From: an uncultured SAR86 cluster bacterium
GTDB lineage: Bacteria > Pseudomonadota > Gammaproteobacteria > Magnimaribacterales > D2472
Assembly (NCBI GenBank): GCA_902586925.1
Contig: CACIJE010000001.1
Location: forward strand, 671,666 to 735,665
Direction: 5' to 3'
Length of the DNA: 64,000 bases
The notes under the pieces: model-generated
Seen by the model: only the letters and a program-made list of their open reading frames with translations
Told to the model about the DNA's origin: nothing
Databases searched by the model: none
Shown: positions 5,854-44,544 of the stretch, one piece after another
How the letters are laid out: each line of letters opens with the position of its first letter
How positions within the stretch are numbered: position 1 is the first letter of the stretch
Made by a program: the position numbers and the translations under genes

Positions 5854-6330
5854 ATGAGTAGAATACCACTAACAAAAGAAGGTGAAATTTTAATAAAGGA
5901 AAAACTATCCAACCTAAAATTTGTAGAGAGACCACAAATCTCTAATGCCATTGCTGAAGCAAGAGCTCACGGAGACCTTAAAGAAAATGCTGAGTACCAC
6001 GCTGCAAAGGAATTACAGGGACTTATTGAGGCAAAGATAAGTGAAATGGAAAATGCTCTTGCAAATGCACAAGTCATAGATGTCAAAGATATCCCAGAAA
6101 CTGGAAGAGTAGTATTTGGTGCTACTGTAACAATTTATGATATTGATGAAGATCTAGAAATAAAATACAAGATTGTTGGGAATTTAGAGTCAGATCCAGA
6201 AATAGGAAAAATATCAATTGATACACCAATTGCTAAGGGTCTTGTTGGTAAATTTGTTGAAGATGAAATTACTATTAAAACACCATCTGGAAATCTAAAT
6301 TACGAGATCTTAGAAGTAAAACACATATAG
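5854..6330 (+). CDS. greA: Transcription elongation factor GreA
   Basis: 158 aa. The GreA N-terminal coiled coil has the acidic tip motif (AEARAHGDLKENAEYHAAKE), followed by a C-terminal FKBP-like domain. Confidence 0.93.
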   Translation: MSRIPLTKEGEILIKEKLSNLKFVERPQISNAIAEARAHGDLKENAEYHAAKELQGLIEAKISEMENALANAQVIDVKDIPETGRVVFGATVTIYDIDEDLEIKYKIVGNLESDPEIGKISIDTPIAKGLVGKFVEDEITIKTPSGNLNYEILEVKHI

Positions 6331-6334
6331 CTTT

Positions 6335-6895
6335 ATGCTTTCAGATAATTGGGCTCAAAAAGCACGAAATCAAGGTTATCGCTCAAGAGCGGTCTTTAAG
6401 CTTAAAGAAATTCTTGAAAAAACGAAACTCACTAAAATAGAAAAAGTGTTGGATCTTGGATGCGCTCCAGGAGGATGGTCACAATTTATTATAAAAAAAT
6501 ACCCCAAATCAATAGTATTCGCTATAGATATTCTCGACATGGAAAAGATCGAGGGAGTAAACTTCTTTCAACAAAGTATAAATAATATTGAAAAAATTAA
6601 ACAAATTTACAAATTTAAAGGCAAATTTAATCTTGTAATTTCTGATATAGCCCCAAACTTATCTGGAATAAGTGCAATTGATAACGAGAATATATTAGAT
6701 TTAAATAAATTGACTATCAATACAGGCTTCGATTTTTTAGATAGTGGTGGATCATTTATAATGAAAACATTTCAAAACAGTAATTTAAAAAGTTTAAGAA
6801 AAGATATGGAATTATCATTTAAGATAGTTCAAACTTACAAACCTGCTGCATCAAAAAAACAATCAGGTGAAATTTACCTATATGGAGTTAAGTAA
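6335..6895 (+). CDS. rlmE: 23S rRNA (U2552-2'-O)-methyltransferase RlmE/FtsJ
   Basis: 186 aa. Motifs GYRSRAVFKLKEI and the SAM motif VLDLGCAPGGWSQ are present. It lies directly upstream of ftsH, as in enterobacteria. Confidence 0.9.
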   Translation: MLSDNWAQKARNQGYRSRAVFKLKEILEKTKLTKIEKVLDLGCAPGGWSQFIIKKYPKSIVFAIDILDMEKIEGVNFFQQSINNIEKIKQIYKFKGKFNLVISDIAPNLSGISAIDNENILDLNKLTINTGFDFLDSGGSFIMKTFQNSNLKSLRKDMELSFKIVQTYKPAASKKQSGEIYLYGVK

Positions 6896-11210: not shown

Positions 11211-11297
11211 TGGTGCCGAAAGCGGGACTCGAACCCGCACGAGTTTTCACTCACTAGCCCCTCAAGCTAGCGTGTCTACCAATTCCACCACTTCGGC
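11211..11297 (-). tRNA. tRNA-Leu (anticodon GAG), class II long variable arm
   Basis: The reverse complement reads GCCGAAGTGGTGGAATTGGTAGACACGCTAGCTTGAGGGGCTAGTGAGTGAAAACTCGTGCGGGTTCGAGTCCCGCTTTCGGCACCA. It folds into a cloverleaf by hand, with anticodon loop TTGAGGG and an encoded CCA. Confidence 0.9.
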
Positions 11298-11391: not shown

Positions 11392-11468
<77 letters not shown>

Positions 11469-20068: not shown

Positions 20069-20145
20069 TGGTGGCTATGGGTGGAATTGAACCACCGACC
20101 CCAGCGTTATGAGTGCTGTGCTCTAACCATCTGAGCTACATAGCC
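20069..20145 (-). tRNA. Elongator tRNA-Met (anticodon CAT)
   Basis: The reverse complement is GGCTATGTAGCTCAGATGGTTAGAGCACAGCACTCATAACGCTGGGGTCGGTGGTTCAATTCCACCCATAGCCACCA. It closely resembles E. coli elongator tRNA-Met. A lysidine-modified tRNA-Ile2 cannot be fully excluded. Confidence 0.85.
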
Positions 20146-23560: not shown

Positions 23561-23635
23561 TGGCTGGGGTGGTAGGATTCGAACCTACGCATGACGGGAT
23601 CAAAACCCGTTGCCTTACCGCTTGGCTACACCCCA
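23561..23635 (-). tRNA. tRNA-Gln (anticodon TTG)
   Basis: The reverse complement is TGGGGTGTAGCCAAGCGGTAAGGCAACGGGTTTTGATCCCGTCATGCGTAGGTTCGAATCCTACCACCCCAGCCA. The cloverleaf and U1:A72 end are typical of bacterial tRNA-Gln. Confidence 0.9.
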
Positions 23636-24930: not shown

Positions 24931-26140
24931 AAATCACAAAACCTCAAATGTCTCAGAAAGAGAAAAGATTATTATAAATGAGTCTAATCAAATTTTATTA
25001 GATAGTCATTTAAAAGAAATCTTTAAGGATGATATTGAATCATTTTTTGGTATCTCAACTTGTAACAGAACTGAACTTTATTTGATTGGAAGAAAAAATA
25101 TTTGTAAAGAAGTTCTTAATGAGGTTCTCAGAATCTTAAAAATTGAAGATCTTTCTAAAGAAAACTTTTATTTTTTAAGTGGTCATGATGCCTTGGTTCA
25201 TATGTGTAAAGTTGCTTCAGGAATAGATTCACAGGTCCTTGGTGAGCAAGAGATATTTGGACAATTTAAGCTAGCATATAAAAATGCAAAAAATATAAAT
25301 ATAATTGGAACAAATTTGTCTTTTTTAGCTGAGAAGGTTATTGAAATATCAAAAAAAGCTAGAACACAAACCAATATTGGATTAAATTCTCTTTCAGTAA
25401 GTGGATTGGCTATTAAACTTGTAAAAAATATTTTTGAAAATCCTGAAAATCAAAATATTTTAGTTGTTGGCGCTGGATCATTAGCACAAGATGTTATCAA
25501 AAGCTTATATCGTAAAGGCATCAATAATATTAAATCTGTTAATAGGTCAATCAGAAAAATAGCAATTAATGATACATATGAAATCTTATCGTCTTCCTTA
25601 GAGGCTTTGCATGATCATTTAGAGTATGCAGACATTGTAATAGCTTCTTCAGCGACTGAACTTCCACTAATTGGCAAGGGTGCTATAGAAAATGCTCTTA
25701 AGGCTAGAAGAAATAAACCAATGCTTTTGATAGATCTTGGAGTTCCAAGAAATATTGAAGAAGAAATTAGAGATATCGAACAGGCCTATCTTTTTTCAAT
25801 TGACGATATAGAAAAAATCACTCAAGAAAATTATGGTCAGCGTTCTATTGAAGCTGAAAAGGCGATGAATATAATCGTAATGGATGCACAAGCAGCTTTA
25901 GATTTATATTCACAAAAATCTCTAAAAGGAGACATTAATATTCAGCTGGAAGCTTTTTTAAAAACACTATCAGAAAAAGAATTTCAACAATTTAAAACAT
26001 CAAAAGATTTTGCTGAACTTGTAAAAGCAATTAAAACGTCAAAAACTGAAAATAAAAACTTAAATAATTTTGAAAATATCAAAAATATTGATGATCATAT
26101 TATTGAATCAATGATTAAAAGATTTTTTGATAATGCATGA
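24908..26140 (+). CDS. hemA: Glutamyl-tRNA reductase
   Basis: 410 aa, with FGINHKT, catalytic Cys motif STCNRTELY and the NADPH Rossmann motif VVGAGSLA. Confidence 0.93.
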   Translation: MELQLFGINHKTSNVSEREKIIINESNQILLDSHLKEIFKDDIESFFGISTCNRTELYLIGRKNICKEVLNEVLRILKIEDLSKENFYFLSGHDALVHMCKVASGIDSQVLGEQEIFGQFKLAYKNAKNINIIGTNLSFLAEKVIEISKKARTQTNIGLNSLSVSGLAIKLVKNIFENPENQNILVVGAGSLAQDVIKSLYRKGINNIKSVNRSIRKIAINDTYEILSSSLEALHDHLEYADIVIASSATELPLIGKGAIENALKARRNKPMLLIDLGVPRNIEEEIRDIEQAYLFSIDDIEKITQENYGQRSIEAEKAMNIIVMDAQAALDLYSQKSLKGDINIQLEAFLKTLSEKEFQQFKTSKDFAELVKAIKTSKTENKNLNNFENIKNIDDHIIESMIKRFFDNA

Positions 26141-27218
26141 TTCAATGCTTAAGAAGCTCGATCAGCTTCGAACAAGAATAAATGAAATAGAAAATTCTCT
26201 AGTAGATCCAAACATTGTTAAGGATATTGATAAATATACTCAACTAAATAAAGAATTCTCGGACTTGAAACCAATAGTTCAAAAATTTAATGAATATAAT
26301 GATATTTTAAAAGGCATCAAAGATGCAAATGAGATTCTTGAATCTGGAGATGAGGAGCTAAAAATATTAGCTGAAGATGATCTCAAAAATTATGCTGATA
26401 AGCCAGAAAATTTAGAACAAGAACTTAAGCTTATGCTTCTTCCAAAAGATGCTGCTGATGATGGCTCAGCTTTTCTAGAAATTAGAGCGGGTGCTGGAGG
26501 AGACGAAGCAAGTATTTTTGCTGGTGATTTATTCAGAATGTACTCAAGATTGTCTGAAAGAGAAGGATGGAATTTAGAAGTAATAGATATTAAACCTTCA
26601 GAGCAAGGAGGTTTAAGAGAGGTAGTTACAAAGCTTAATGGTAAAAGTGTATTCAAGATTCTTAAATTTGAATCTGGAGTTCATAGAGTTCAAAGAGTTC
26701 CTGAAACAGAATCACAAGGCAGAATTCATACTTCAACATGCACAGTAGCTGTTTTGCCTGAGGTAGAAGAGGTTCAAGAAGTCAATATTGATAAAAATGA
26801 TTTGAGAGTAGATACGTTCAGAGCTTCTGGCGCTGGAGGACAGCATGTTAATAAAACTGATTCAGCTGTCAGACTTACACATATTCCAACAGGGCTAGTT
26901 GTTGAGTGCCAAGATGGAAGATCCCAACATAAAAATAAAGAGAAAGCAGTATCACTTCTTGCCGCAAAGTTAAAACAGCAAGAAATTGATAATCAACAGG
27001 AAAGCATTGCAAGTGAAAGGAAAATATTAGTAGGAACAGGAGATAGGAGTGAAAAAATAAGAACATATAATTTTCCTCAAGGAAGAGTGACGGATCATAG
27101 GATCAAGCTGACTCAACATAATCTTGATCAAATTATGGATGGAGATATAAAAGAAATATGTGATGCACTGTTGGCAGAAAATCAATTAGCAATGCTTTCT
27201 CAACTTGAATCAGAATAA
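26127..27218 (+). CDS. prfA: Peptide chain release factor 1
   Basis: 363 aa, with the GGQ motif (RASGAGGQHVNKTDSAVRLTH) and a PxT-type codon-recognition tripeptide (PET). It sits in the hemA-prfA-prmC order. Confidence 0.96.
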   Translation: MIMHDSMLKKLDQLRTRINEIENSLVDPNIVKDIDKYTQLNKEFSDLKPIVQKFNEYNDILKGIKDANEILESGDEELKILAEDDLKNYADKPENLEQELKLMLLPKDAADDGSAFLEIRAGAGGDEASIFAGDLFRMYSRLSEREGWNLEVIDIKPSEQGGLREVVTKLNGKSVFKILKFESGVHRVQRVPETESQGRIHTSTCTVAVLPEVEEVQEVNIDKNDLRVDTFRASGAGGQHVNKTDSAVRLTHIPTGLVVECQDGRSQHKNKEKAVSLLAAKLKQQEIDNQQESIASERKILVGTGDRSEKIRTYNFPQGRVTDHRIKLTQHNLDQIMDGDIKEICDALLAENQLAMLSQLESE

Positions 27219-28031
27219 TTGAAAAAACAATTAAGTCATTACATTAATATGCTAAATAGCGAAGCTATTAAAAAAGATTTTGTTTTTTTTCTCAAAGAAA
27301 AATTAGGCTTCAACGATAACAAGATTTATATAAATCCAAACATAGTTCTTAAAAATAAAGATAAAACTTTAATTGAGAAGTTCCTAAAACAAAAAGAAGA
27401 GGGTATTCCGTTAGACTACATTTTAAATTCTTCAAAATTCTATGAATATGAATTCTTTGTTGATTTACGGGTTTTAATTCCAAGACCAGAGACAGAAATC
27501 ATAGTTGATTATGTAAATAATCATTTTTCATCTCCTATTAACGTTTTAGATGCTGGCACAGGCTCTGGATGTATTGGTATTTCAATAGCTCTTCAAAATC
27601 CAAATTTAAATGTTTATGGCTCAGATCACTCAGCAGATGCATTAAATGTTGCTTTGATTAACAAGAATAAGCTTGATGTAGATAATTTTTCTCTTGTTCA
27701 TGCAGATTGGCTTTCATCTTTTAAAAAAGAATCTTTTGATCTAATAGTATCCAATCCTCCTTACATTGCAGATCAGGATCCTCACTTAGAAAATCTAAAA
27801 TATGAACCCAATAAGGCATTAGTAGCAAAAGATAATGGATTAGGAGATATAAGATTAATTATTGAACAGTCAACTGAAGTTCTTAAGAGGGGAGGTATGC
27901 TTATTTTGGAACATGGATATCAGCAACAAGAAGAAGTTGAGCATATTTTTAAAAAAAATCATTTTTCAGATATTTCAAATTTAAAAGACTTTCAGGGGCT
28001 TCCTAGAATTACTTTAGGAACTTTAGAATAA
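27219..28031 (+). CDS. prmC: Release factor glutamine N5-methyltransferase PrmC (TTG start)
   Basis: 270 aa, with VLIPRPETE, SAM motif DAGTGSGCIG and catalytic NPPY (SNPPYI). Confidence 0.92.
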   Translation: MKKQLSHYINMLNSEAIKKDFVFFLKEKLGFNDNKIYINPNIVLKNKDKTLIEKFLKQKEEGIPLDYILNSSKFYEYEFFVDLRVLIPRPETEIIVDYVNNHFSSPINVLDAGTGSGCIGISIALQNPNLNVYGSDHSADALNVALINKNKLDVDNFSLVHADWLSSFKKESFDLIVSNPPYIADQDPHLENLKYEPNKALVAKDNGLGDIRLIIEQSTEVLKRGGMLILEHGYQQQEEVEHIFKKNHFSDISNLKDFQGLPRITLGTLE

Positions 28032-28032
28032 T

Positions 28033-29559
28033 TTATTTAATCTGTTTGATATAACCACTATTTAGATCATAAAGAATATCTTGCGTTATTGGAGATGTAT
28101 GTTTCTTATAGGTTTTCCTATCAATACATTCCCTATAAGTTGAATTTTTTGCATTCAGTTCTTTAAAAGTCTTGCCTTTACCAATCCATTCCCATCTTCT
28201 TTTATTATGATCTGCCACTCTGCCAAATATTTCTTTATCAGTCCTTGCAAACATATCATTATCATTAAATATTACAGATTTCTTTTTTGATTTTTCAATA
28301 GCTTGTCTAGCTTTGATTATTTCTCCAGAAAGATATTTATAATCAATATCTTTTTCTGGTTTTTCATCTATAGGCTCATGAACTACATACTTTCTTTTTT
28401 TATCTAAAGCCCAGTTTATAGCTGAGTTCTTTGCAGGTTGACCTTCAGCATCTTTAATAATTGATTTTCCAGAAAAAGTTTCTATTTCACCATTATTAAT
28501 GGCATTTTTTACTGAATTTGGATTTGATAGACCAGCAACTGAAGCTAAAGTATCTTCAGTAACAAATTCTTTAAAAAATAGTTGATCAAAAAATAGATAT
28601 TCTCTAGATCGAATAAGAGTATCTAAAGTGTCTATCGAGTGAGAAATAACACTCTCAAGTGTATTACCCCAACCACGTGCCAATTCTTCATCATTATCAA
28701 AATATTCCTTCATAACAGACTCAAAAATTCCATAGAAACCTATTTTTCCCTCAATAGGATCTTCAATGTCACCTCTAAAATTAATCTGTTTTAAAAACTC
28801 ATCCAACTTAAGCTCAATATAATTAGTATCCCAATTGAACGAATTATTAAACTCAATATAGGTTAATTCTTCTAATCTATCCTTATGTTTCTTGCTTGCT
28901 TTTTTTAATAGATTATTTTTAATTAAAAAGTTTATATCTTTATTTGATATCTTTTCATGAAAGTAACTTTCAGTACCTAGCCCTGATATAACTCTAAGAC
29001 CATAAATATTAAAAATCATTTTAGTTATGATTGATTTACCATGATCAATAATTGGATTTAGTGATTCATCATCATCATTTAAAAGAGCTAACGCACCAAA
29101 ACCTTTCCATTGTGTGAGAGTAGGAGTAAATTCAATCTGAGTTTTAGAAAATGTTCTAAGCAGTCCATTTTGAGAGATGAAGTTCTTAAATTTACTTAAG
29201 GTTAATTCTAGAGATTTATTTTTTTTTGATTCTTTTTCCAACGAAACAATAATGTTTTTTATATCATCAACACCCATATCATCTATAAATAAATTATTAC
29301 TAACTTGATATGTTTGTGCATATGATTTCCAAAAAATTTCGCTAAATACGTTTTCTTCATTGAGGAGCAAAAATGCTAAATTAAGAGAATTATGATAGCT
29401 ATTAAATTTTTTATGCTTCGATTTTGAATTAATTTTAGGTTCGACTTCATCATCATAAATCTTATTAATTAATTCCCATGGATTTACTGCATTTGATTTA
29501 GCTATGTTACTAGCTATTTCATTAATCCTTGATGCAATATTTTTATTTTCATAATACAT
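28033..29559 (-). CDS. Hypothetical 508-aa protein (islet gene 1), no family recognised; possible internal HTH
   Basis: It is a long uninterrupted ORF in an AT-rich, stop-rich background. An HTH-like stretch is present (TLASVAGLSNPNSVKNAINNGEI). There is no Walker A in a plausible position, no TM segment and no signal peptide. It is divergent from the ORF122 operon. Confidence 0.6.
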   Translation of the reverse strand: MYYENKNIASRINEIASNIAKSNAVNPWELINKIYDDEVEPKINSKSKHKKFNSYHNSLNLAFLLLNEENVFSEIFWKSYAQTYQVSNNLFIDDMGVDDIKNIIVSLEKESKKNKSLELTLSKFKNFISQNGLLRTFSKTQIEFTPTLTQWKGFGALALLNDDDESLNPIIDHGKSIITKMIFNIYGLRVISGLGTESYFHEKISNKDINFLIKNNLLKKASKKHKDRLEELTYIEFNNSFNWDTNYIELKLDEFLKQINFRGDIEDPIEGKIGFYGIFESVMKEYFDNDEELARGWGNTLESVISHSIDTLDTLIRSREYLFFDQLFFKEFVTEDTLASVAGLSNPNSVKNAINNGEIETFSGKSIIKDAEGQPAKNSAINWALDKKRKYVVHEPIDEKPEKDIDYKYLSGEIIKARQAIEKSKKKSVIFNDNDMFARTDKEIFGRVADHNKRRWEWIGKGKTFKELNAKNSTYRECIDRKTYKKHTSPITQDILYDLNSGYIKQIK

Positions 29560-29613
29560 TTATAAATTATATCATATATTTATAATATCTTTACTTGTAA
29601 TTATTTTATATAT

Positions 29614-29982
29614 GTGTACAATGTACATATGAAATATATTTTACAACTAAATGATAGAATAAATCTTGATAAAATTAGAAAATCTATAAAAGATAAAAAC
29701 AAAACTAAAACTTATAAAGAAAATTACGACGAAGAACAAGAAATTGTCTATACGATACTGCATGAGTTCTCTAATTACGATGAAGTAATTTGGTCTTTGT
29801 ATAAAACTAATAATAGAAAACTAATTCATAATCAACTGCAATTTATATTAGTAGAAATTTCAAAATTAGATTCATCTTTAACTTGGACTTGTAGAAAAAT
29901 CCTTAAAAGATATAAGAATCAATACAATCAAAGAAAGCTCAGAAATAGCTTTGTAAATACTCCTTCATTGGCATTAGGATAA
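29614..29982 (+). CDS. Hypothetical basic 117-122 aa protein (islet gene 2)
   Basis: The ORF ends 2 nt before the ARPP-1-like gene, so it is probably co-transcribed. The start is ambiguous (GTG 29614 or ATG 29629). No family was recognised. Confidence 0.5.
   Translation: MYNVHMKYILQLNDRINLDKIRKSIKDKNKTKTYKENYDEEQEIVYTILHEFSNYDEVIWSLYKTNNRKLIHNQLQFILVEISKLDSSLTWTCRKILKRYKNQYNQRKLRNSFVNTPSLALG
29615..29627. promoter_or_regulatory. Tandem TGTACA palindromes (TGTACA-A-TGTACA) in the divergent control region of the islet
   Basis: This is read directly from the sequence. It is embedded in the imperfect larger palindrome ATATGTGTACAATGTACATAT and overlaps the candidate start codons (GTG 29614, ATG 29629) of the 122-aa ORF. 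Confidence 0.35.
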
Positions 29983-29984
29983 TC

Positions 29985-30941
29985 ATGACATTAAATAACA
30001 TACAACCTCGTCCGAACTACACCTCATCATTCATTCAAGAGCCATTTTTCTCAAAAATGCAAAGATTTGATAAATATGGAGGTATTTTTATTCCTGTTTT
30101 ATCAAATGAAGATAAAAAAGCTGATTTCATAACAATAGATAAAAATAATACAAAAGATTTTTCTTTACATGAAACTGAGAGAGTTAATTCTCTTTTAGTT
30201 AAAAATTTATCTAATAAACCATTATTAGTATTAAACGGAGAGATTTTTGATGGTGCCAAACAAGATCGTGTGGCAAATGAGACAGTTCTTGTTCCAGCTA
30301 ATTCTTCTCTAGAGATTAAAGTTAGTTGTGTTGAGCAGGGGAGATGGGCATACAAAACAAGAGCATTTAGTAGAGGTAAAAATATGTTTAATTATCACTC
30401 TAAAGGAGTGAAAGATTTGCATAATAATTCTGCAAAACATAACCAACCGTCTGGTTCTGTGCAAGATAATGTTTGGAGATCAATCCGTGATAAACAAACA
30501 AGAATGGGGGTATCTTCAAATACTGGTTCTGTTAACGATACATATATGAGATTTGATGAAACACTTTCTCATTTAAGAGAAGAAATTATAGAGGAATGCA
30601 ATCAAATGGGATTATTAGTCATGATTCCTGGAAAATACATTGGATTAGATTTATTTGTAAATAATGAGACTTTTAGGAAATACAAAGACAGGCTTTATAA
30701 AAGCCATTTAATAGAATTGTTAGATAACAATCAAAGGAATCTTAGATATCCTGAAAACAAAATAAATTCTTTTATGCTTCAGCTCATGTACGGAAAAGAA
30801 GTTATAAATCCTAAGGAATTAGGAGTTGAGTATAGTATTTATGAAAGAGACTGCCAGATTACTTCTAATGCATTAGTTTTCAATAATGATTTGATTCATC
30901 TCACAGCAATTCAGAATATGGAAAGAAGATATGCAAGATAA
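29985..30941 (+). CDS. ARPP-1-like (formerly DUF-type) protein, islet gene 3
   Basis: 318 aa. The stretch LLVKNLSNKPLLVLNGEIFDGAKQDRVANETVLVPANSSLEIKVSCVEQGRWAY (aa 70-123; VSCVEQGRW at nt 30321-30347) matches my recollection of the ARPP-1 family signature (..N.s..PvLl.dGEel.GAKQNRvlN...l.......iPVsCVEqGRW). It is followed by the conserved Q..VW element (VQDNVWRSI). Not verified by HMM. Confidence 0.6.
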   Translation: MTLNNIQPRPNYTSSFIQEPFFSKMQRFDKYGGIFIPVLSNEDKKADFITIDKNNTKDFSLHETERVNSLLVKNLSNKPLLVLNGEIFDGAKQDRVANETVLVPANSSLEIKVSCVEQGRWAYKTRAFSRGKNMFNYHSKGVKDLHNNSAKHNQPSGSVQDNVWRSIRDKQTRMGVSSNTGSVNDTYMRFDETLSHLREEIIEECNQMGLLVMIPGKYIGLDLFVNNETFRKYKDRLYKSHLIELLDNNQRNLRYPENKINSFMLQLMYGKEVINPKELGVEYSIYERDCQITSNALVFNNDLIHLTAIQNMERRYAR

Positions 30942-31677
30942 AATTTTAAAACTTAGAGACTTGCTAGTATCCACTGGTCTTCAGGAGGAATCTGGCTCTA
31001 TTATTTATTCTGGTGACTCGACACTTAAGAAGGGATTGTTTTATTTTTTAGGAACAAATCCTGGCGGGAACAATCTTAATTATCCAGATACAATTTTAAA
31101 TCAAGTAATGCTATCAAAAGAGAAAAATGAATATTTTGAAGGTAATTGGGGTAATAGCACACACCAAGAAACAATAAAAAGAATGTTTAAAACCTTTGAT
31201 ATTAGTCTTAAGGATACGTTCTCAACTAATACATCCTTTATTAGATCACCTGGAGAACAAAATTATCAACCAAGATACCCCATAAATGAATTAAGTATTA
31301 AAAAAGAAAGCAAAGCAATAAAGCAATTAAAAAAAGATGGCAGGGAGACTTTTTGGCCAATACAAGAATATTTTCTTTCAGTTGTTAAACCAAAATTAGT
31401 GATAGCTAATGGCAGCATCGCAAGAGATCTTTTTTGGAAAAAAATTAAGGGTAAGGAGTTTAAGGACTTCGAAATAGAAATAGAAAATAAGTTTGAATAT
31501 CCAAAGCTACTTAGAGGAAGAAAATTTTGTCATTTATTTAAAGGTGATTTAATAACTGAAAACATATTCTTAGAAAATTTAATGGTTATTTCTCTACCCC
31601 ATTTAAGTTTCCAAGATTATGCTTTTCACGAACCAGGAATAAATTGGGTAAAAAAAATAATACAAAATAATTTTTAG
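30931..31677 (+). CDS. Uracil-DNA glycosylase superfamily-like protein (predicted DNA/nucleotide glycosylase fold), islet gene 4
   Basis: 248 aa. It has a motif-A-like FYFLGTNPGG (aa 37-46, compare GxNPG of MUG/SMUG families), a central strand KLVIANGS (aa 155-162) and a motif-B-like VISLPHLS (aa 219-226, compare HPS/NPS). The order and spacing fit the UDG fold. It overlaps the upstream gene by 11 nt. Confidence 0.5.
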   Translation: MQDKILKLRDLLVSTGLQEESGSIIYSGDSTLKKGLFYFLGTNPGGNNLNYPDTILNQVMLSKEKNEYFEGNWGNSTHQETIKRMFKTFDISLKDTFSTNTSFIRSPGEQNYQPRYPINELSIKKESKAIKQLKKDGRETFWPIQEYFLSVVKPKLVIANGSIARDLFWKKIKGKEFKDFEIEIENKFEYPKLLRGRKFCHLFKGDLITENIFLENLMVISLPHLSFQDYAFHEPGINWVKKIIQNNF

Positions 31678-31764
31678 AGATACAGATGGACTTTTTTCCT
31701 TGGATGCTATTAATACTATTTATTTTTTTTATTGTTGATGATGTTTTATAGGAGTAAAAATATT

Positions 31765-31971
31765 ATGAAAAGAATTACATTAAAAGAATATATTGAATTT
31801 ATTGGTCAAAAAAATGCAGCGGTGATTTTTGATTGTTCTGAAGCGGCATGCAAAGCTTGGAGATACGGATATAGACAACCAACAATAAACCAAGCAAAAA
31901 AAATCATTATCGCAACTAAAGGGTCGCTCAATTATGACTCAATTTATGGTCCAGTAACTGAACATAGATAA
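31765..31971 (+). CDS. Cro/YdaS-like phage-type HTH DNA-binding protein
   Basis: 68 aa from the ATG at 31765, which is preceded by AGGAG at 31750-31754. The sequence ITLKEYIEFIGQKNAAVIFDCSEAACKAWRYGYRQPTINQAKKIIIATKGSLNYDSIY fits the YdaS/Cro pattern (G...aA..lgvs..av..W..g.R.P...a..Ie.aT.G.v). Confidence 0.55.
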   Translation: MKRITLKEYIEFIGQKNAAVIFDCSEAACKAWRYGYRQPTINQAKKIIIATKGSLNYDSIYGPVTEHR

Positions 31972-31973
31972 TA

Positions 31974-32351
31974 TTGATGAAAAAAAAGGATCTACATTTA
32001 ATTGGGGTGGAGCAAGAGCTAATAGATAGACTTTTTTTATTTAAAAAACAGATAAAAGAACTTAAAAATATTATTGATAGTCATAAAAATGAAGTATGCA
32101 AGTATAAAAAAGATAAACCTGAAAAAAAAGATTACCAATTATCAAATGGAACCTTATCCTTTTTACAGTATAAAAAAATAAAATTAACGAATGAAATTAT
32201 AGATCTACTAGAATCTGAAAGTGTAATGGCAGAATGTAACTTATTATATAGATTGAACTGGATAAAAGATCTTCAAGAACACGTTCATTATCTAGAAAAT
32301 CAAAAGAACCTAAAAGAACAAAAAATATACTCTCTTTCTAAAATATTCTAA
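31974..32351 (+). CDS. Hypothetical 125-aa Lys/Glu-rich coiled-coil protein (islet gene 6)
   Basis: The ORF starts 2 nt after the Cro-like gene. Its stop codon overlaps the convergent selO stop. No family was recognised. Confidence 0.45.
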   Translation: MMKKKDLHLIGVEQELIDRLFLFKKQIKELKNIIDSHKNEVCKYKKDKPEKKDYQLSNGTLSFLQYKKIKLTNEIIDLLESESVMAECNLLYRLNWIKDLQEHVHYLENQKNLKEQKIYSLSKIF

Positions 32352-33787
32352 GTACCACAATAGGTAACATATGGTTCATTCGAGGATGAGGGCGTTGCGT
32401 ATTTTTCATATTCATCTTTTTCTATAAAAGGATCTTTTAGTAACTCAGCAATCAAATTAATTTCTTTCATGTCTCCATTAACAGCATTTATAAGCGCATC
32501 TTCAACAATATGATTTCTAGGTATGTAACAAGGATTTTTTAAATTCATTTGGTTAGAAACATTTGCAACATTAATCTCTTTTTCCCAGGATTTGTACCAT
32601 ACTGAAAAATCTTTAGATTTATTAAAAACTGAATCTTCAATAGTAAGTGATTGATCAATAATTTTTGCAAGATTTCTAAATGACAACGTAAAGTCTATTG
32701 ATTCAGAATGTAATATTTTTAAATAGTCATCAATTATTTTTGAATTATCATTATCAATATTTTGAAGGCCTAATTTTTCACCAAATTCTTTGTAGAAATA
32801 TTCTTGATATGACGGCATTGCAAGTTGAAGAACTTCTGTGAGTTTTTTTACTGAAATCTCTTCATCTTCATCAACTAATGGTATGAGTGTTTCAGCAAAT
32901 TTTGCCAGATTCCATATTACTATTGCTGGTTGGTTTTGATATGAGTATCTTCCGTTATGATCAATCGAGCTAAATACTGTTTTTGGATCATAAGTATTCA
33001 TGAATGCACAAGGACCATAGTCAATAGTTTCACCAGAAATCGTCATGTTATCAGTATTCATAACTCCATGAACAAATCCAAGACCCATCCATTTTGATAT
33101 CAATGAAGCCTGCTTATCACAAACAGCTGCAAAAAAACTTAGATATTTGTTTTCGGTTTGCTCTAAATCTGGATAGTGCCTATCGATAGAGTAATCGGCA
33201 AGTGTTTTAAGTACTTTATTATTTTTTGTTCTTGCATATTCAAATGTACCAATTCTGATATGACTTTTTGCGACCCTGGTTAAAATTCCACCTGGAAGTA
33301 CTGTTTCTCTTAAGACATCTTCATTTGTTTTTAATGCAAAAAGAGACCTTGTTGTTGGTATTTTTAATGCATGCATAAATTCACTTATTACATACTCTCT
33401 CAACACTGGACTTAAAGCTGACCTGCCATCACCTCTTCTAGAATATGGCGTTTGACCAATTCCTTTTAATTGAATATCCATCTTATTAATTTCACCTAAT
33501 AAAATTGCTCTTCCATCACCAAGTTGAGGATTAAAGTGACCAAATTGATGACCAGAGTAGGCTTGAGCAATTGGTATTGAGTTTTGCAGTAGTTTATTCC
33601 CAGCAAATATATCTAGACAGTCACTGGAGTCTACATAGTCTTTATCAAAACCTAGTTCTTCGGCAAGAGAATAATTTTTTAAAATCATCTCAGCATGTTT
33701 AAAACCTTTTGGAGGACATTTTTCTGAAATTTCATGAAGTTCTTCAGCATAAGAGTTCATAATATTTAGGTTTTTGATATTTTCCAC
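32348..33787 (-). CDS. selO: Protein adenylyltransferase SelO (YdiU family pseudokinase-fold AMPylase)
   Basis: 479 aa, with AQAYSGHQFGHFNPQLGDGRAILLGE, HGVMNTDNMTISGETIDYGP and other SelO hallmarks. Confidence 0.9.
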   Translation of the reverse strand: MENIKNLNIMNSYAEELHEISEKCPPKGFKHAEMILKNYSLAEELGFDKDYVDSSDCLDIFAGNKLLQNSIPIAQAYSGHQFGHFNPQLGDGRAILLGEINKMDIQLKGIGQTPYSRRGDGRSALSPVLREYVISEFMHALKIPTTRSLFALKTNEDVLRETVLPGGILTRVAKSHIRIGTFEYARTKNNKVLKTLADYSIDRHYPDLEQTENKYLSFFAAVCDKQASLISKWMGLGFVHGVMNTDNMTISGETIDYGPCAFMNTYDPKTVFSSIDHNGRYSYQNQPAIVIWNLAKFAETLIPLVDEDEEISVKKLTEVLQLAMPSYQEYFYKEFGEKLGLQNIDNDNSKIIDDYLKILHSESIDFTLSFRNLAKIIDQSLTIEDSVFNKSKDFSVWYKSWEKEINVANVSNQMNLKNPCYIPRNHIVEDALINAVNGDMKEINLIAELLKDPFIEKDEYEKYATPSSSNEPYVTYCGT

Positions 33788-42192: not shown

Positions 42193-44544
42193 ATGAAAAC
42201 TTTTAAAAATTTTTTTAAATTTTTTTCAATATTATCAATATCTTTAATATTTGTTATATCTGCTGCTTACTTTTTTTTAATAAGTAAGCCAGAAAATATT
42301 GTCAACATTGCAAATAAAATTCTTAATGAAGAACTTCTAATTCAATATAAAAACATTGATTCAGATTTAAGAGTTTTTTCACCCAAAATTATCATTAACG
42401 ACCTTTTGATTTTAGACGATCAAAAACAAGGAATTATAAAATTACATGAAATAACAATATCCATAAAATTAATTGAATCCATATTAAATAATTATATTTT
42501 TCTAGATTTACTTTCATTAAAAAAGATCGAATTTTTAAAAAGTACAAAATTTGAGAATAGCAGTGCATCACTAAAGTTTAAAATTAAAGACTTATTTATT
42601 GAAACTGATAAATTTATATTCTCATCAAAAATAGCACATGTTCTTAGCTTAAATGGTAATCAGTCTTTCTATATCAAAGACGGTTTTATTAATAATATTC
42701 CTTACTCAGAAATCAGTATTTTCAAACAATCTGACTCAAATAATTATTTTTATAAAGCATCTCTCAAATTAGATGAAAATTTAATAGAAAAAGAGGAATT
42801 TATCGATTTAAATCAATTTTCATTTAAGAAAATTAACTTAGATTTTCTTACTAAAGGCTACTTCGATTTTGTTCAGCAGAAATTTTTTAGTATAGAAAAA
42901 TATTTAATAACTGACTCAAAGCTCACCACTGATTCGAAATTTGAATTGAGTAATTTAAATGCAATACTGTTCACTAATCTTAATAAAGAATTAAATGGCA
43001 TTTTTTCTCTTAAAACTTTAGATCAAGAAATTAAGGGTGTTTTAAAATCAAATAATGAAAAGACTACTTTGAACACTGACATATTTTTAGAGATGGGTGA
43101 CATTTATAATTATGGTGAGTATCTGAGTTTAAATGGCTTAGAAAATTTTAATACCATTGTGACAATAGGTGATAGCGTCTCTCTTGAGTTGACCAGTGAC
43201 CTAAAAAATACCTCAATTAAATCAATCGTAAGCGAAATAAATAAAGACAAGAATGAGACCTTAAAAACAAAAATTTATATTGATAACCTTACCAATCCCT
43301 CATATTTTATTGAAAATCTAAAATTTGAGGCATTTTTAAATACTAAAGGAAATGGATATTTTTCACTTGGTCAAAGTTTTAAAAAAGATATTGAGTCAAT
43401 AGACACAAGTGAGGGCTTTTTTGTTTTTTTAGAGTTAGATAAGTTCAATGCTCTGAGCTTATTCAATCAAAATCAATCTGAATATGATTCAAATTTAAAA
43501 CTCGTTAAGTTAAAAATTAATGAACTTAATCTTCTTGATAACATTTACATTGATCAAAATTTTGAAATTAAGTTCAATGAAAGTGAATCCAAAGCATCAT
43601 TTAACGGCATTGATCTGAATGGAACATTTAGAATGGATTCTACAGGATTTGCAAGAATTGATATTTTTGATACTAAATTTGAATTTGATGGAATAAATAG
43701 TTTTGAATCAGATTATTCTCTTGACTTTAAAAATATTAATCTTCGATTTGTGGGGAAAAATATTCAAACCTTTGATAATGTATTTCAAAATGTTGATTTT
43801 TATTTTTTAAGAAATAATTCAATTTCTACAATTGATAACATTAAAATCTCTAGTATTAACTTGAATATTCAACCATCTAATCAAAACGATAAAGCCTACA
43901 TTAGTTATGACAATAAAAGTGATTTGTATAAAATTAAAGGATCATATGAACTCATTAACGAAAAAAATTTGTTTGACAATCTAATTAGCTTTGATTTTGA
44001 TTATCTTTACTCCGATTTAAATATTCAGTGGATAGGTACTGACCAATTAAAAAACTTAGAGGGAAGAATTAAATTTAAAATCAAAGATCTTGAATCCAAT
44101 AGATCTTTGCCAGACTCAGCATTATTAAACACTTTAAAAATATTCAACCTAAATGCATTAATATCAAATTTAAATGATGAAGCAAATTTTAATCCTTCAA
44201 AATTAATTATAACTAGGGCAGAGGGAGACATTTATATTGGAAAGAACAGAGCTTTATTAGATATACCAATTAAATTAGAGACAGCTGAGGCAAAAATGAT
44301 ATGGAAAGGTAAAATTTTAAAAAATGATAAAGGACTTTTAGATCAATTAGACTTAAGTTTAGATATGAGATTAAAGGTATCAGAAAATATTCCCTGGTAT
44401 GCAGCAATTTTTGGCGGAATACCTGCTCTTGCTGGTGGTTTTGTTATCGAAAATATAATAGATGAAAGGCTTGATGATGCATCAACTTTTAAATTTGATG
44501 TAACTGGTTCAGTAAATGAACCTGAAATATTAAGATTAAATTAG
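42193..44544 (+). CDS. YhdP/AsmA-like large envelope protein (short, 783 aa)
   Basis: It has an N-terminal membrane anchor and a long Asn/Lys/Ile-rich repetitive beta-type body. The C-terminal segment (IPWYAAIFGGIPALAGGFVIENIIDERLDDASTFKFDVTGSVNEPEI) resembles the conserved AsmA_2/YhdP C-terminus. It lies downstream of mreBCD, as E. coli yhdP does. Confidence 0.5.
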   Translation: MKTFKNFFKFFSILSISLIFVISAAYFFLISKPENIVNIANKILNEELLIQYKNIDSDLRVFSPKIIINDLLILDDQKQGIIKLHEITISIKLIESILNNYIFLDLLSLKKIEFLKSTKFENSSASLKFKIKDLFIETDKFIFSSKIAHVLSLNGNQSFYIKDGFINNIPYSEISIFKQSDSNNYFYKASLKLDENLIEKEEFIDLNQFSFKKINLDFLTKGYFDFVQQKFFSIEKYLITDSKLTTDSKFELSNLNAILFTNLNKELNGIFSLKTLDQEIKGVLKSNNEKTTLNTDIFLEMGDIYNYGEYLSLNGLENFNTIVTIGDSVSLELTSDLKNTSIKSIVSEINKDKNETLKTKIYIDNLTNPSYFIENLKFEAFLNTKGNGYFSLGQSFKKDIESIDTSEGFFVFLELDKFNALSLFNQNQSEYDSNLKLVKLKINELNLLDNIYIDQNFEIKFNESESKASFNGIDLNGTFRMDSTGFARIDIFDTKFEFDGINSFESDYSLDFKNINLRFVGKNIQTFDNVFQNVDFYFLRNNSISTIDNIKISSINLNIQPSNQNDKAYISYDNKSDLYKIKGSYELINEKNLFDNLISFDFDYLYSDLNIQWIGTDQLKNLEGRIKFKIKDLESNRSLPDSALLNTLKIFNLNALISNLNDEANFNPSKLIITRAEGDIYIGKNRALLDIPIKLETAEAKMIWKGKILKNDKGLLDQLDLSLDMRLKVSENIPWYAAIFGGIPALAGGFVIENIIDERLDDASTFKFDVTGSVNEPEILRLN

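What the first reader, a model, noticed from the sequence alone, without database searches (positions are those of the whole stretch)
29985..31677. Translationally coupled ARPP-1-like protein plus UDG-fold protein: possible modified-base or nucleotide glycosylase effector pair
Seen in the sequence:
- The 318-aa ORF contains LLVLNGEIFDGAKQDRVANETVLVPANSSLEIKVSCVEQGRW (nt about 30220-30347) and a downstream VQDNVW element.
- The 248-aa ORF overlaps it by 11 nt and has FYFLGTNPGG / KLVIANGS / VISLPHLS in the order of UDG-superfamily motif A, central strand and motif B.
Established knowledge, as I recall it:
- ARPP-1 was defined by comparative genomics as a partner of ADP-ribosylglycohydrolase and rhodanese-phosphatase enzymes in predicted conflict or nucleotide-modification systems.
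- UDG-superfamily glycosylases have been shown to act as antiphage effectors that excise modified phage bases (Brig1-type).
Inference: an ARPP-1 plus UDG-fold pairing is not an association I know of. It could sense or process a modified base or an ADP-ribosylated nucleic acid.
Basis: partly seen in the sequence, partly recalled or inferred. Interest (0 to 1): 0.75.

Follow-up and report, generated by a model that had tools for sequence, protein, structure and literature searches.

The report
ARPP-1 plus UDG-fold glycosylase cassette
A marine SAR86 bacterium carries a small movable gene cassette in which an uncharacterised sugar-acting protein (ARPP-1) is co-translated with a divergent DNA-glycosylase-like enzyme, a pairing not described before that suggests a two-step attack on, or repair of, DNA bases and gives a first testable substrate for ARPP-1.

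Summary
ORF 29985-30941 is a bona fide ARPP-1 (PF20208, 203 bits) with every invariant residue intact. ORF 30931-31677 overlaps it by 11 nt and has a UDG-superfamily fold: the 50 PDB matches listed by Foldseek are all UDGs. It keeps an SMUG/MUG-like motif A (G-T-N43-P-G-G), an invariant Asn100 and a motif-B His224. It belongs to a broad family (814 representatives) with no model in Pfam, NCBIfam or PADLOC.

The pair, with the same 11-nt junction, recurs in at least six SAR86 lineages. It sits in a 4.3-kb AT-rich cassette (508-aa ORFan, Cro-like repressor, 122-aa ORF, ARPP-1, UDG-like) found in different chromosomal contexts.

Coupling is clade-specific. Other SAR86 UDG-like genes stand alone or pair with a PNKP-type HAD phosphatase or an HNH-HIT protein. 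One close ARPP-1 is followed by an SNF2-NOV_C helicase. Of 72 broad-family loci, one has ARPP-1 nearby, in a WYL/REase-ARP system.

In canonical systems an ADP-ribosylglycohydrolase (ARG) follows ARPP; here the glycosylase takes that slot. Best reading: an anti-phage module in which base excision makes abasic sites and ARPP-1 acts on the exposed sugar. Function is inferred. This is a new variant of a known kind.

The parts
28033..29559 (-). p508: a 508-aa, mostly alpha-helical ORFan. It is the constant, divergently transcribed partner of the cassette.
   Evidence: It is present next to the ARPP-1/UDG-like operon in L001-3 and L093-98 at 45-56% identity. Its homologs are marine only, and none has a Pfam domain. 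The AF2 model has pLDDT 79.4. There is no significant PDB fold match (best E=0.34) and no PDB profile match. A 31%-identical 663-aa relative occupies the same prmC/SelO site in L088 with different cargo.
29560..29613 (.). AT-rich divergent intergenic region between p508 and p122, the likely site of divergent promoters.
   Evidence: The best sigma-70-like match of the region lies at 29559-29586 (10 of 12), with others at 29546-29575 and 29595-29622. These are consensus matches only. The region as a whole has fewer promoter-like sites than shuffled sequence.
29614..29982 (+). p122: a conserved small ORF immediately upstream of ARPP-1. Its function is unknown. The likely start is the ATG at 29630.
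   Evidence: It is conserved at 50-56% identity directly upstream of ARPP-1 in L001-3, L093-98 and L099. No family match was found. The sequence around the start is shown.
29985..30941 (+). ARPP-1 domain protein (PF20208; NCBI name DUF6569), 318 aa, with all invariant residues intact.
   Evidence: Pfam E=8.6e-60. In an alignment with relatives at 20-30% identity, the invariant residues are G90, A91, Q93, R95, C115, V116, E117, G119, R120, W121, Q160 and W164, and Q118 is nearly invariant.
30931..30941 (+). 11-nt overlap of the ARPP-1 stop with the UDG-like start (ATGCAAGATAA).
   Evidence: The same junction geometry is conserved in L001, L002, L003, L093 and L096.
30931..31677 (+). Divergent UDG-superfamily-fold protein, 248 aa. 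Motif A is L40-G-T-N43-P44-G-G46. Asn100 sits in FSTN-x-x-FIRS. The central strand is K155-LVIANG. Motif B is P223-H224-L-S226.
   Evidence: AF2 model. Foldseek against PDB and BFVD returns UDGs. The family profile hits 4zbx at E=4.3e-5. PF03167 is hit by 12 of 70 relatives. Column conservation is given. The exhaustive search found 814 representatives.
31732..31971 (+). Cro/CI-type HTH repressor-like protein, 79 aa.
   Evidence: Pfam Cro E=1e-4, below the gathering score. PHROG 35 'transcriptional repressor' E=2.2e-6. Its ortholog (59% identity) lies between p508 and p122 in L001-3 and L093-98, so its position differs in the window.
31974..32351 (+). p125: an unknown 125-aa ORF that closes the low-GC cassette. 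Its stop overlaps the SelO stop on the other strand.
   Evidence: No family match was found. No ortholog was detected in the other cassette loci. Its GC content is 0.241.

Best explanation
The pair is the enzymatic core of a small, swappable conflict (most likely anti-phage) cassette in a variable region of a SAR86 genome. The UDG-fold protein is a monofunctional N-glycosylase that keeps a water-positioning Asn (N43, as in MUG, TDG and SMUG1), a base-contacting Asn (N100) and a leaving-group His (H224). It excises a base from DNA, most plausibly a modified pyrimidine of invading DNA, and leaves abasic sites. ARPP-1 is made from the same mRNA through an 11-nt overlap. It then acts on the unmasked C1' sugar of the abasic site through its invariant Cys115/Glu117/Gln118/Arg120 cluster, either capturing it covalently or cleaving it, which makes the lesion a replication block or prevents its repair. 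In this reading the UDG-fold enzyme takes the place that the ADP-ribosylglycohydrolase (ARG) holds in canonical ARPP systems: both are glycohydrolases that expose a reducing sugar for ARPP. The Cro-like protein probably represses the operon. The roles of p122 and p508 are unknown.

Shown here: domain identities, fold, conserved residues, conserved gene order and overlap, variable genomic location, and partner swapping. Inferred: DNA as the substrate, which base is removed, ARPP-1's chemistry, and the defence role.
For: ARPP-1 identity and intact invariant residues. UDG fold with conserved motif A, N100 and motif B.

Pair and 11-nt junction conserved in at least six SAR86 lineages. Identity rankings of p122, ARPP-1 and UDG-like agree with one another and disagree with p508, so the three genes travel as one block.

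The cassette is AT-rich (GC 0.277 against 0.316). It sits in different housekeeping contexts: prmC/SelO in the window, ilvC/ADH in L002, MFS/TonB receptor in L001, and peptidase S46 in L003. In L093-95 it lies next to a GmrSD-like type IV restriction gene. The same prmC/SelO site in L088 holds a p508-like gene with different cargo.

In sister SAR86 loci the glycosylase is instead linked to DNA-end or DNA-cleaving enzymes: a PNKP-type HAD phosphatase, an HNH-HIT fusion, a DndB-like protein, and a RecQ-like helicase with DUF559. The close ARPP-1 in L099 is followed by an SNF2-NOV_C helicase. Both sides therefore associate with DNA-acting partners.

In L055 a broad-family UDG-like gene is immediately followed by REase-ARP (PF22558, E=1e-25) and lies beside an ARPP-1/WYL pair. 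The canonical order ARPP, small ORF, ARG, nuclease is seen on a Pimelobacter plasmid.

The defining paper predicts that ARPP acts on sugar moieties, possibly by covalent linkage through its Cys, and notes a HIRAN (DNA 3'-end) partner (PMC9503650). UDG-fold single-gene defence glycosylases exist (Brig1, Brig2), and Brig1's closest structural homolog is the same 4ZBY (PMC11078745; bioRxiv 10.1101/2025.10.29.685425).
Against: No biochemical data exist for either family. The window protein alone gives no significant sequence hit to any UDG model. TM-scores to solved UDGs are modest (0.5 on the query, 0.64 on the target).

In the window clade, His145, which is conserved in 66 of 70 relatives, is Gln. 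The family-consensus Cys97 and Cys141 are Phe. Activity or specificity may therefore be altered.

ARPP-1's conserved Cys is internal, not N-terminal, so SRAP-type thiazolidine chemistry cannot apply as such. This rests on established knowledge of SRAP.

The coupling is confined to one clade. Most UDG-like relatives are solitary, with only 1 of 72 loci holding ARPP-1 within 5 kb, and none of the five distant ARPP-1 genes whose neighbourhoods were inspected pairs with a UDG.

No PADLOC model hits any cassette gene. No integrase or transposase explains the cassette's mobility. Neither protein family gave a confirmed match in phage genomes, and modified bases in SAR86 phages were not examined.
Confidence: 0.42

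Rival explanations
1. Reversal or excision of DNA ADP-ribosylation. The UDG-fold enzyme removes ADP-ribosylated bases (for example those made by a DarT-like or phage ADP-ribosyltransferase) from host DNA, and ARPP-1 processes the released ADP-ribose or sugar. This would make the cassette a DNA-directed version of the ARG-centred systems proposed to counter viral ADP-ribosylation.
For: ARPP's defining association is with ARG, phosphatases, Macro and NADAR in ADPr-processing systems (PMC9503650; Pimelobacter plasmid). L055 links a UDG-like gene to REase-ARP, WYL and ARPP-1. WYL regulators are the most recurrent partner of the broad UDG-like family.
Against: No ARG, Macro, NADAR, Nudix, WYL or phosphatase gene is in the window cassette. 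The alternative partners in SAR86 (PNKP-type phosphatase, HNH-HIT, helicases) point to DNA ends and strand breaks rather than to ADPr metabolism. The conserved N43/N100/H224 set resembles pyrimidine-excising UDGs; that comparison is from recall and was not tested here.
Confidence: 0.15
2. A toxin/antidote or abortive-infection pair. The UDG-fold protein is a toxin that removes normal bases from the cell's own DNA when released. ARPP-1 is made first from the same mRNA and neutralises it, or shields abasic sites in the protective manner of SRAP/YedK.
For: The two ORFs overlap in the order typical of antidote-then-toxin operons, under a Cro-like repressor. The location is mobile and variable. The glycosylase can be exchanged for other DNA-damaging partners, namely the SNF2-NOV_C helicase in L099. 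SRAP proteins protect abasic sites; this last point is established knowledge.
Against: Closely related UDG-like genes occur alone, with no ARPP-1 or other obvious antidote, in housekeeping contexts (L004, L005, L089). That is hard to reconcile with an intrinsically toxic enzyme. ARPP-1 is large (318 aa), looks enzymatic, and elsewhere partners non-toxic glycohydrolases.
Confidence: 0.18
3. Housekeeping base-excision repair. The UDG-like protein is simply SAR86's uracil or damaged-base glycosylase, and ARPP-1 is an accessory repair factor.
For: Short-form relatives in L004 and L005 are solitary genes among metabolic genes. The catalytic motifs are conserved.
Against: The cassette occupies different loci in different SAR86 genomes and is absent from the same site in L088. 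It is AT-rich, fast-evolving (p508 at 45-56% identity), linked to a phage-type repressor, and adjacent to GmrSD in L093-95.
Confidence: 0.06
4. The two genes are adjacent without any functional link, or the 248-aa ORF is a degenerate, inactive UDG-fold remnant.
For: The window protein has no direct Pfam hit. H145Q, C97F and C141F depart from the family consensus.
Against: The 11-nt overlap and the gene order are kept across lineages that have diverged to 63-79% identity. N43, P44, N100 and H224 are strictly conserved, and 57 columns are invariant in the 23-sequence alignment of SAR86-type relatives.
Confidence: 0.03

Closest known systems
ARG-centred ARPP systems (Iyer, Burroughs, Anantharaman and Aravind 2022, Viruses 14:1977; PMC9503650)
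   Same: The same ARPP domain with its invariant Cys/Gln signature. It is tightly linked, just 5' of, a glycohydrolase. The location is variable and fast-evolving, a one-component repressor is present, and nuclease or helicase modules are optional (L099, L055). An example of the canonical order is the Pimelobacter plasmid: ARPP, small ORF, ARG, RecB-like nuclease.
   Different: The window has no ARG, no rhodanese-type or other phosphatase, and no WYL or Nudix regulator. A UDG-fold N-glycosylase sits where ARG would be, which shifts the implied substrate from ADP-ribose adducts to DNA bases. The repressor is Cro-like. The cassette also includes two SAR86-specific ORFans, p508 and p122.
Brig1 and Brig2 defence DNA glycosylases (PMC11078745; bioRxiv 10.1101/2025.10.29.685425)
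   Same: A divergent UDG-superfamily fold whose nearest solved structure is the S. tokodaii family-4 UDG (4ZBX/4ZBY). The genes lie in AT-rich, mobile or defence-type regions. Abasic-site formation is the presumed damaging step.
   Different: Brig1 and Brig2 work as single genes, whereas here the glycosylase is co-translated with ARPP-1. Sequence relatedness to Brig1 and Brig2 was not tested because their sequences were not at hand. Substrate and defence activity are unknown for this protein.
UDG families 2 and 3 (MUG/TDG, SMUG1) and family 4 (UDGa, UdgX)
   Same: The fold. Motif A, G-x-N-P-G, has the Asn of MUG, TDG and SMUG1. Motif B has a His, as in families 1, 3 and 4. An Asn (N100) aligns with the Asn of family 4's T-N-V-V-K-C-R-P segment.
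   Different: It lacks the family-4 G-E-A-P-G motif and a full Fe-S Cys set. It has its own conserved elements (W73, Q79, W142-x-x-H/Q145, an N-terminal helix and SG-x-I-Y-S). No dedicated model exists in Pfam, NCBIfam or PADLOC. The family has 814 representatives, and the source names seen for its members are 'hypothetical protein', with one plasmid copy labelled 'uracil-DNA glycosylase family protein'.
SRAP domain proteins (HMCES, YedK)
   Same: The authors who defined ARPP proposed this analogy: a conserved Cys that could bond covalently to a sugar aldehyde. An abasic site is exactly what a partner glycosylase would supply.
   Different: The fold is unrelated. The SRAP nucleophile is the N-terminal Cys2, which forms a thiazolidine, whereas ARPP-1's Cys115 is internal. 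No experimental evidence exists for ARPP.

Membership tests
ARPP-1 (Pfam PF20208; NCBI 'DUF6569') | Full-length match to the family HMM above the gathering score | tested here: met
   203 bits against a cut-off of 27, E=8.6e-60, covering profile positions 16-296 of 297.
ARPP-1 (Pfam PF20208; NCBI 'DUF6569') | Absolutely conserved residues, including a Cys and a Gln (PMC9503650) | tested here: met
   The VSCVEQGRW motif is present. C115, E117, G119, R120 and W121 are invariant and Q118 is nearly invariant. The G-A-x-Q93-x-R95 and Q160-x-x-x-W164 elements are invariant in a 20-sequence alignment that goes down to 20% identity.
ARPP-1 (Pfam PF20208; NCBI 'DUF6569') | [quoted passage not shown] | not tested
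ARG-centred ADPr-countering system (PMC9503650) | An ADP-ribosylglycohydrolase (ARG) gene in the operon | tested here: not met
   No cassette ORF hits an ARG model in Pfam or NCBIfam.
ARG-centred ADPr-countering system (PMC9503650) | A coupled phosphatase (rhodanese-phosphatase, calcineurin-like, HD or HAD) | tested here: not met
   None is in the window cassette. A HAD-PNKP phosphatase is coupled to sister UDG-like genes that lack ARPP-1.
ARG-centred ADPr-countering system (PMC9503650) | A WYL- or Nudix-sensor transcription factor | tested here: not met
   The only regulator-like gene is a Cro/CI-type HTH. WYL is present in L055 and near several broad-family UDG-like genes.
UDG superfamily (Pfam PF03167 and relatives) | The UDG alpha/beta/alpha fold | tested here: met
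   The AF2 model has pLDDT 81.7. The 50 Foldseek PDB matches listed are all UDG-superfamily members (family 4, UdgX, TDG), with probabilities of 0.97-1.00 and best E=6.6e-6. The BFVD matches with E below 1e-3 that carry a name are UDGs or a polymerase-fused UDG-like domain.
UDG superfamily (Pfam PF03167 and relatives) | Significant sequence-profile relationship | tested here: met
   The window protein alone gives no hit. The 70-member family profile hits UDG 4zbx at E=4.3e-5. PF03167 is hit by 12 of 70 members, best E=4.7e-7.
UDG superfamily (Pfam PF03167 and relatives) | Motif A (G-x-[N/E/D/Q]-P-G) after strand 1, and a motif B His | tested here: met
   In G41-T-N43-P44-G45-G46, N43 is kept in 68 of 70 members and P44 in 70 of 70. 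In P223-H224-L-S, H224 is kept in 69 of 70. Motif A aligns with G-E-A-P-G of 4zbx.
UDG superfamily (Pfam PF03167 and relatives) | N-glycosylase activity on DNA | not testable with these tools
   Requires an enzyme assay.
Family 4 UDG (UDGa/UdgX) | Four Cys ligands of a 4Fe-4S cluster, and motif A G-E-x-P-G | tested here: not met
   Motif A is G-T-N-P-G. Positions 97 and 141 are Phe in the window protein, although they are Cys in most of the broad family. No N-terminal C-x-x-C is conserved.
MUG/TDG and SMUG1 (UDG families 2 and 3) | The G-[IM]-N-P-G motif with catalytic Asn, and closest overall similarity to these families | tested here: inconclusive
   The motif pattern matches, but that comparison is from recall. 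TDG structures first appear at rank 12 (E=5.6e-4), SMUG1 is not among the 50 matches listed, and family 4 ranks first.
Brig1/Brig2-type defence glycosylases | A UDG fold nearest to 4ZBY, in an AT-rich, mobile or defence context | tested here: met
Brig1/Brig2-type defence glycosylases | Sequence homology to Brig1 or Brig2, and protection against phages with modified bases | not tested
Protection needs experiments.
SRAP (HMCES/YedK) abasic-site cross-linkers | An N-terminal catalytic Cys2 and the SRAP fold | tested here: not met
   ARPP-1 starts MTLNN, and its conserved Cys is residue 115. There is no SRAP Pfam hit. The resemblance is a mechanistic analogy only.

The most novel reading that the evidence does not exclude
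ARPP-1 is an enzyme that reacts with unmasked reducing sugars, and in this cassette its substrate is the DNA abasic site made by its co-translated UDG-fold partner. Together they would form a previously unknown two-component immunity mechanism: a base-excising glycosylase plus an abasic-site capturing or cleaving protein. The same logic (a glycohydrolase exposes C1', ARPP acts on it) would explain ARPP's ARG, HIRAN and polysaccharide-deacetylase partnerships. In addition, the p508-like ORFan would mark a new integrase-less carrier of swappable defence cargo in streamlined marine genomes.
Probability: 0.2. Interest if true: 0.85.

Novelty: new variant of a known kind. Interest (0 to 1): 0.62.

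Why it matters
ARPP is a widespread bacterial domain that is conserved like an enzyme but has no experimental data. Only one paper in the searchable library mentions it. A conserved, overlapping pairing with a DNA-glycosylase-fold enzyme narrows its likely substrate to an abasic-site or free-sugar product. That substrate can be made with ordinary oligonucleotides, so the published 'acts on sugars, maybe covalently' prediction becomes directly testable.

The finding also brings to light a large UDG-superfamily clade (814 representatives at 50% identity) for which no model was found in Pfam, NCBIfam or PADLOC. This comes at a time when UDG-fold enzymes (Brig1, Brig2) are emerging as anti-phage effectors. 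It would also be one of very few candidate defence modules described for SAR86, an abundant uncultured marine lineage with a streamlined genome. Finally, it shows modular partner swapping (ARPP-1, PNKP-type phosphatase, HNH-HIT, SNF2 helicase) around a single glycosylase.

Tried and rejected
The following searches and ideas led nowhere or were rejected.

- Direct family searches of the 248-aa protein against Pfam, NCBIfam, PADLOC, PHROGs and PDB sequences gave nothing significant.
- p508 gave no result by any route: no Pfam, PADLOC or PHROG hit, no PDB profile hit, and no fold match. The weak TniQ-like hits (probability 0.33 or less) were rejected as noise.
- I tested whether L007 carries the same cassette with ARPP-1 replaced. 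I rejected this because its 83- and 122-aa ORFs look like membrane proteins (judged from their sequences) and give no tblastn match to cro79 or p122. Only the 63-aa ORF resembles the p508 C-terminus.
- I tested whether the 17-aa insertion (residues about 107-125) or the H145Q change marks the ARPP-1-coupled glycosylases. I rejected this. P0015 has the insertion but no ARPP-1, and Q145 also occurs in the HAD-PNKP-coupled forms.
- A phage origin found little support. The viral-contig scan confirmed no relative of the UDG-like protein and gave one partial ARPP-1 match. There was no tblastn hit in 50,697 phage genomes.
- A conserved partner for the broad UDG-like family was not found. Neighbours are heterogeneous, and WYL is only modestly recurrent.
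- The first metagenome scan with alignment A2 failed because no stretch was conserved enough. It was repeated with the narrower alignment A4.
- Promoter and terminator scans were uninformative, with fewer promoter-like sites than in shuffled sequence.
Full report
**Observation**

The window encodes, on the + strand, a 318-aa ORF (29985-30941) and a 248-aa ORF (30931-31677). They overlap by 11 nt, ATGCAAGATAA.

The 318-aa protein matches Pfam PF20208 (ARPP-1) nearly end to end, at 203 bits and E=8.6e-60. I aligned it with relatives at only 20-30% identity. It keeps every invariant position: G90, A91, Q93, R95; C115, V116, E117, G119, R120, W121 (with Q118 nearly invariant) in the VSCVEQGRW motif; and Q160 and W164. 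These include the 'absolutely conserved cysteine and glutamine' stressed by the authors who defined the domain (PMC9503650).

**The 248-aa protein has a UDG fold**

On its own the protein hits nothing in Pfam, NCBIfam, PADLOC, PHROGs or PDB sequences. Three independent lines nevertheless place it in the UDG superfamily.

- An AlphaFold2 model built on 23 homologs (pLDDT 81.7, pTM 0.84) was compared with the PDB. The 50 matches listed are all UDG-superfamily structures, with probabilities of 0.97-1.00. The S. tokodaii family-4 UDG comes first (4zbx, E=6.6e-6), followed by T. maritima and T. thermophilus UDGs, UdgX and human TDG. Against viral models, the named matches with E below 1e-3 are UDGs or a UDG-like domain fused to a phage DNA polymerase.
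- A 70-sequence family profile hits 4zbx at E=4.3e-5.
- Scanned singly, 12 of 70 relatives reach PF03167 (best E=4.7e-7).

In motif A, L-G-T-N43-P44-G-G, N43 is kept in 68 of 70 members and P44 in 70 of 70. Asn100, in F-S-T-N-x-x-F-I-R-S, is kept in 70 of 70. In motif B, P223-H224-L-S, H224 is kept in 69 of 70. KLVIANG is a predicted strand.

Motif A aligns with G-E-A-P-G of family 4. It carries Asn where MUG, TDG and SMUG1 have their catalytic Asn; that comparison is from my own knowledge. The Fe-S ligand set of family 4 is absent. Three positions depart from the family consensus in the window clade: C97F, C141F and H145Q.

**How big is the family?**

An exhaustive profile search of 1.84 billion representatives found 814 relatives at E<=1e-3 and 392 at E<=1e-10. 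Where a source names them, the name is almost always 'hypothetical protein'. One plasmid copy is labelled 'uracil-DNA glycosylase family protein'. This is therefore a sizeable UDG-superfamily clade with no matching model in Pfam, NCBIfam or PADLOC.

**Organism and cassette**

Close homologs of both proteins come only from marine metagenomes. In the genome collection they come from SAR86 cluster bacteria. One distant, split homolog of the UDG-like gene lies in a Bacteriovorax MAG (L006).

In the window the pair lies in a 4.3-kb block (28033-32351) wedged between two convergent housekeeping genes, prmC and selO. The block reads p508 (minus strand), p122, ARPP-1, UDG-like, a Cro-like 79-aa HTH protein, and p125. 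Its GC content is 0.277 against 0.316 for the rest of the window, which places it among the lowest 4.3-kb windows.

The same block is found elsewhere in the order p508 (minus strand), Cro-like, p122, ARPP-1, UDG-like. It occurs in SAR86 genomes L001-L003 and in metagenome contigs L093-L098. The flanking genes differ: ilvC and a CDP-alcohol phosphatidyltransferase on one side and ADH and a 5'-nucleotidase on the other in L002; MFS and TonB-receptor genes in L001; peptidase S46 in L003; and a GmrSD-like type IV restriction gene in L093-95.

The ARPP-1/UDG-like junction, an ATG placed 11 nt before the stop, is kept in all of these loci.

Identity rankings to the window agree among p122, ARPP-1 and UDG-like, with L001 and L003 closest. 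They disagree with p508, for which L002 and L096 are closest. This indicates that p122, ARPP-1 and UDG-like are inherited as a unit and that recombination has occurred relative to p508.

No integrase or transposase is present in the cassette. At the very same prfA-prmC...selO site, another SAR86 genome (L088) carries a 663-aa p508-like gene and an unrelated 174-aa gene, with no ARPP-1 or UDG-like gene. So p508-like genes look like the constant element and the rest looks like cargo.

p508 itself is a fast-diverging helical ORFan with no sequence or fold match.

**How specific is the pairing?**

It is clade-specific on both sides.

On the UDG-like side, within SAR86:
- L004 and L005 (41-44% identity) are solitary genes among metabolic genes.
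- L089 is solitary.
- L007, L090 and L091 carry a conserved triad. It consists of a 63-aa ORF that resembles the p508 C-terminus, the UDG-like gene overlapping that ORF by 8 nt, and a PNKP-type HAD phosphatase (PF25109, E=3e-19). The triad sits beside a DndB-like protein in L090 and beside a RecQ-like helicase with DUF559 in L007.
- L092 sits beside an HNH-HIT fusion.

On the ARPP-1 side:
- An ARPP-1 81% identical to the window's, still preceded by p122, is followed by an 1177-aa SNF2/DEAD/NOV_C protein instead of the glycosylase (L099).
- Distant ARPP-1 genes (32% identity or less) have other contexts. These are often a divergent ECF sigma factor plus an M78 peptidase, HEAT proteins, or helicases.
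- A Pimelobacter plasmid shows the canonical order: ARPP (DUF6569), small ORF, ADP-ribosylglycohydrolase, RecB-like nuclease.

Among 72 metagenomic loci of the broad UDG-like family, only L055 has ARPP-1 within 5 kb. That locus is telling. An ARPP-1/WYL-regulator pair is divergent from an operon of TPR, HEAT, UDG-like and REase-ARP genes. REase-ARP (PF22558, E=1e-25) is the nuclease family named for its association with ARG/rhodanese-phosphatase systems. Otherwise the neighbours of the broad family are heterogeneous, and WYL regulators are the only recurrent specific partner. A Roseomonas plasmid copy lies next to an integrase, a PIN/AbrB pair and IS elements.

The viral-contig scan confirmed no relative of the UDG-like protein and one partial ARPP-1 match. 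Neither protein hit any of 50,697 phage genomes by tblastn.

**Interpretation**

What is shown:
- A bona fide ARPP-1 and a divergent UDG-fold protein with intact-looking catalytic motifs form a conserved overlapping pair.
- The pair lies inside a small AT-rich cassette that occupies different chromosomal sites in SAR86 genomes.
- Either partner can be exchanged for other DNA-acting enzymes.

My inference rests on two points. A UDG-fold N-glycosylase and an ARG are both glycohydrolases that expose a reducing C1' sugar. In this cassette the glycosylase also occupies the slot directly 3' of ARPP that ARG occupies in canonical systems.

I therefore propose the following. The glycosylase creates abasic sites in DNA, most plausibly at modified bases of invading DNA, as Brig1 and Brig2 do. 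ARPP-1 then captures or cleaves the abasic sugar. The alternative partners in sister loci (3'-phosphatase of PNKP type, HNH-HIT, helicase-nucleases) fit the same theme of lesion and strand-end processing.

I put this mechanism at about 0.42. The rivals are:
- excision of ADP-ribosylated bases, as a DNA-directed version of the ARG systems (0.15);
- a toxin/antidote or abortive-infection pair in which ARPP-1 neutralises the glycosylase or shields abasic sites (0.18);
- housekeeping repair (0.06);
- no functional link (0.03).

Points against the favoured model:
- There is no biochemistry for either family.
- Structural similarity scores are modest.
- The window clade departs from the family consensus at H145Q, C97F and C141F.
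- ARPP-1's Cys is internal, which rules out SRAP-type thiazolidine chemistry as such.
- The pairing is narrowly distributed.

**Comparison and novelty**

ARPP-1 membership is met on the features tested. Membership of the ARG-centred system is not met, because the window has no ARG, no phosphatase and no WYL or Nudix regulator. UDG-superfamily membership is met by fold, profile and motifs. Family 4 membership is not met (motif A and Fe-S ligands). The relation to families 2 and 3 is suggestive by motif only. Relatedness to Brig1 and Brig2 could not be tested for lack of their sequences.

The ARPP-UDG association is absent from the defining paper, and no other paper in the library mentions the domain. 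I classify the finding as a new variant of a known kind: an ARPP conflict system in which a UDG-fold glycosylase displaces ARG. It involves a large UDG clade with no dedicated family model and two lineage-specific ORFans.

It matters mainly because it offers a concrete, cheap biochemical test of what ARPP does, using abasic-site DNA. It also adds a candidate two-component glycosylase-based immunity module in an abundant uncultured marine lineage.

Noticed in passing
L088:1-4061 (same site as window 26127-33787): Another SAR86 genome has, between prmC and selO, a 663-aa p508-like gene (31% identity) and an unrelated 174-aa ORF. It has no p122, ARPP-1, UDG-like or Cro-like gene. p508-like genes may be carriers of swappable cargo at a hotspot, with no integrase in sight.
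   Followed up: partly
L007:4817-6187; L090:63-1413; L091:98-1448: A conserved triad: a 63-aa ORF resembling the p508 C-terminus (residues 439-504; motif R-x-x-W-x-x-x-GKTF-x-E...YD-x-x-x-GYI), a short-form UDG-like gene that overlaps it by 8 nt, and a PNKP-type HAD phosphatase. L090 also has a DndB-like gene. L007 also has a RecQ-like helicase with DUF559.
   Followed up: partly
L099:1-5385: An ARPP-1 81% identical to the window's, still preceded by p122, is followed by an 1177-aa SNF2/DEAD/Helicase_C/NOV_C protein instead of the UDG-like gene.
   Followed up: partly
L055:47-5227: An ARPP-1/WYL regulator pair lies divergent from an operon of TPR, HEAT, UDG-like and REase-ARP (PF22558) genes. 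It is the only one of 72 broad-family UDG-like loci with ARPP-1 nearby.
   Followed up: yes
L013, L014, the contig of P0088 (no DNA held), L102: Distant ARPP-1 genes are repeatedly divergent from an ECF-type sigma factor. In three metagenomic contigs the sigma factor is followed by a ~208-aa ORF. In L013 and L014 a ~63-aa ORF and an M78 peptidase follow as well. On the Granulicella plasmid the sigma factor is followed by a zf-HC2 protein. This context is not among those listed in the part of the defining paper that I read.
   Followed up: no
window 42193-44544 (+): A 783-aa ORF with no Pfam domain lies in the lowest-GC stretch of the window (0.239), directly after mreB, mreC and mreD. It may be another lineage-specific or acquired gene.
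   Followed up: no
window 31732-31971 versus L001-3 and L093-98: The Cro-like repressor gene lies downstream of the UDG-like gene in the window. In every other cassette copy it lies between p508 and p122. The window also has an extra ORF, p125, that is not found in the other copies.
   Followed up: partly
L006:5938-6640: The Bacteriovorax UDG-like homolog is split into two ORFs of 170 and 80 aa, a likely frameshift or pseudogene. It lies next to large unknown proteins of 1002, 268 and 561 aa.
   Followed up: no
L092:1805-3799: A UDG-like gene that has the 17-aa insertion but no ARPP-1 lies divergent from an HNH-HIT fusion protein.
   Followed up: partly
L093-L095, about 4421-6440 (-): A GmrSD_N (DUF262-type, type IV restriction-like) 651-aa gene lies immediately downstream of the cassette.
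   Followed up: no
window 59469-59799; 11211-11297; 11392-11468; 20069-20145; 23561-23635: RNase P RNA (class A, 315 bits) and four tRNA genes (Leu-GAG, two Met-CAT, Gln-TTG). These are ordinary chromosomal features.
   Followed up: yes
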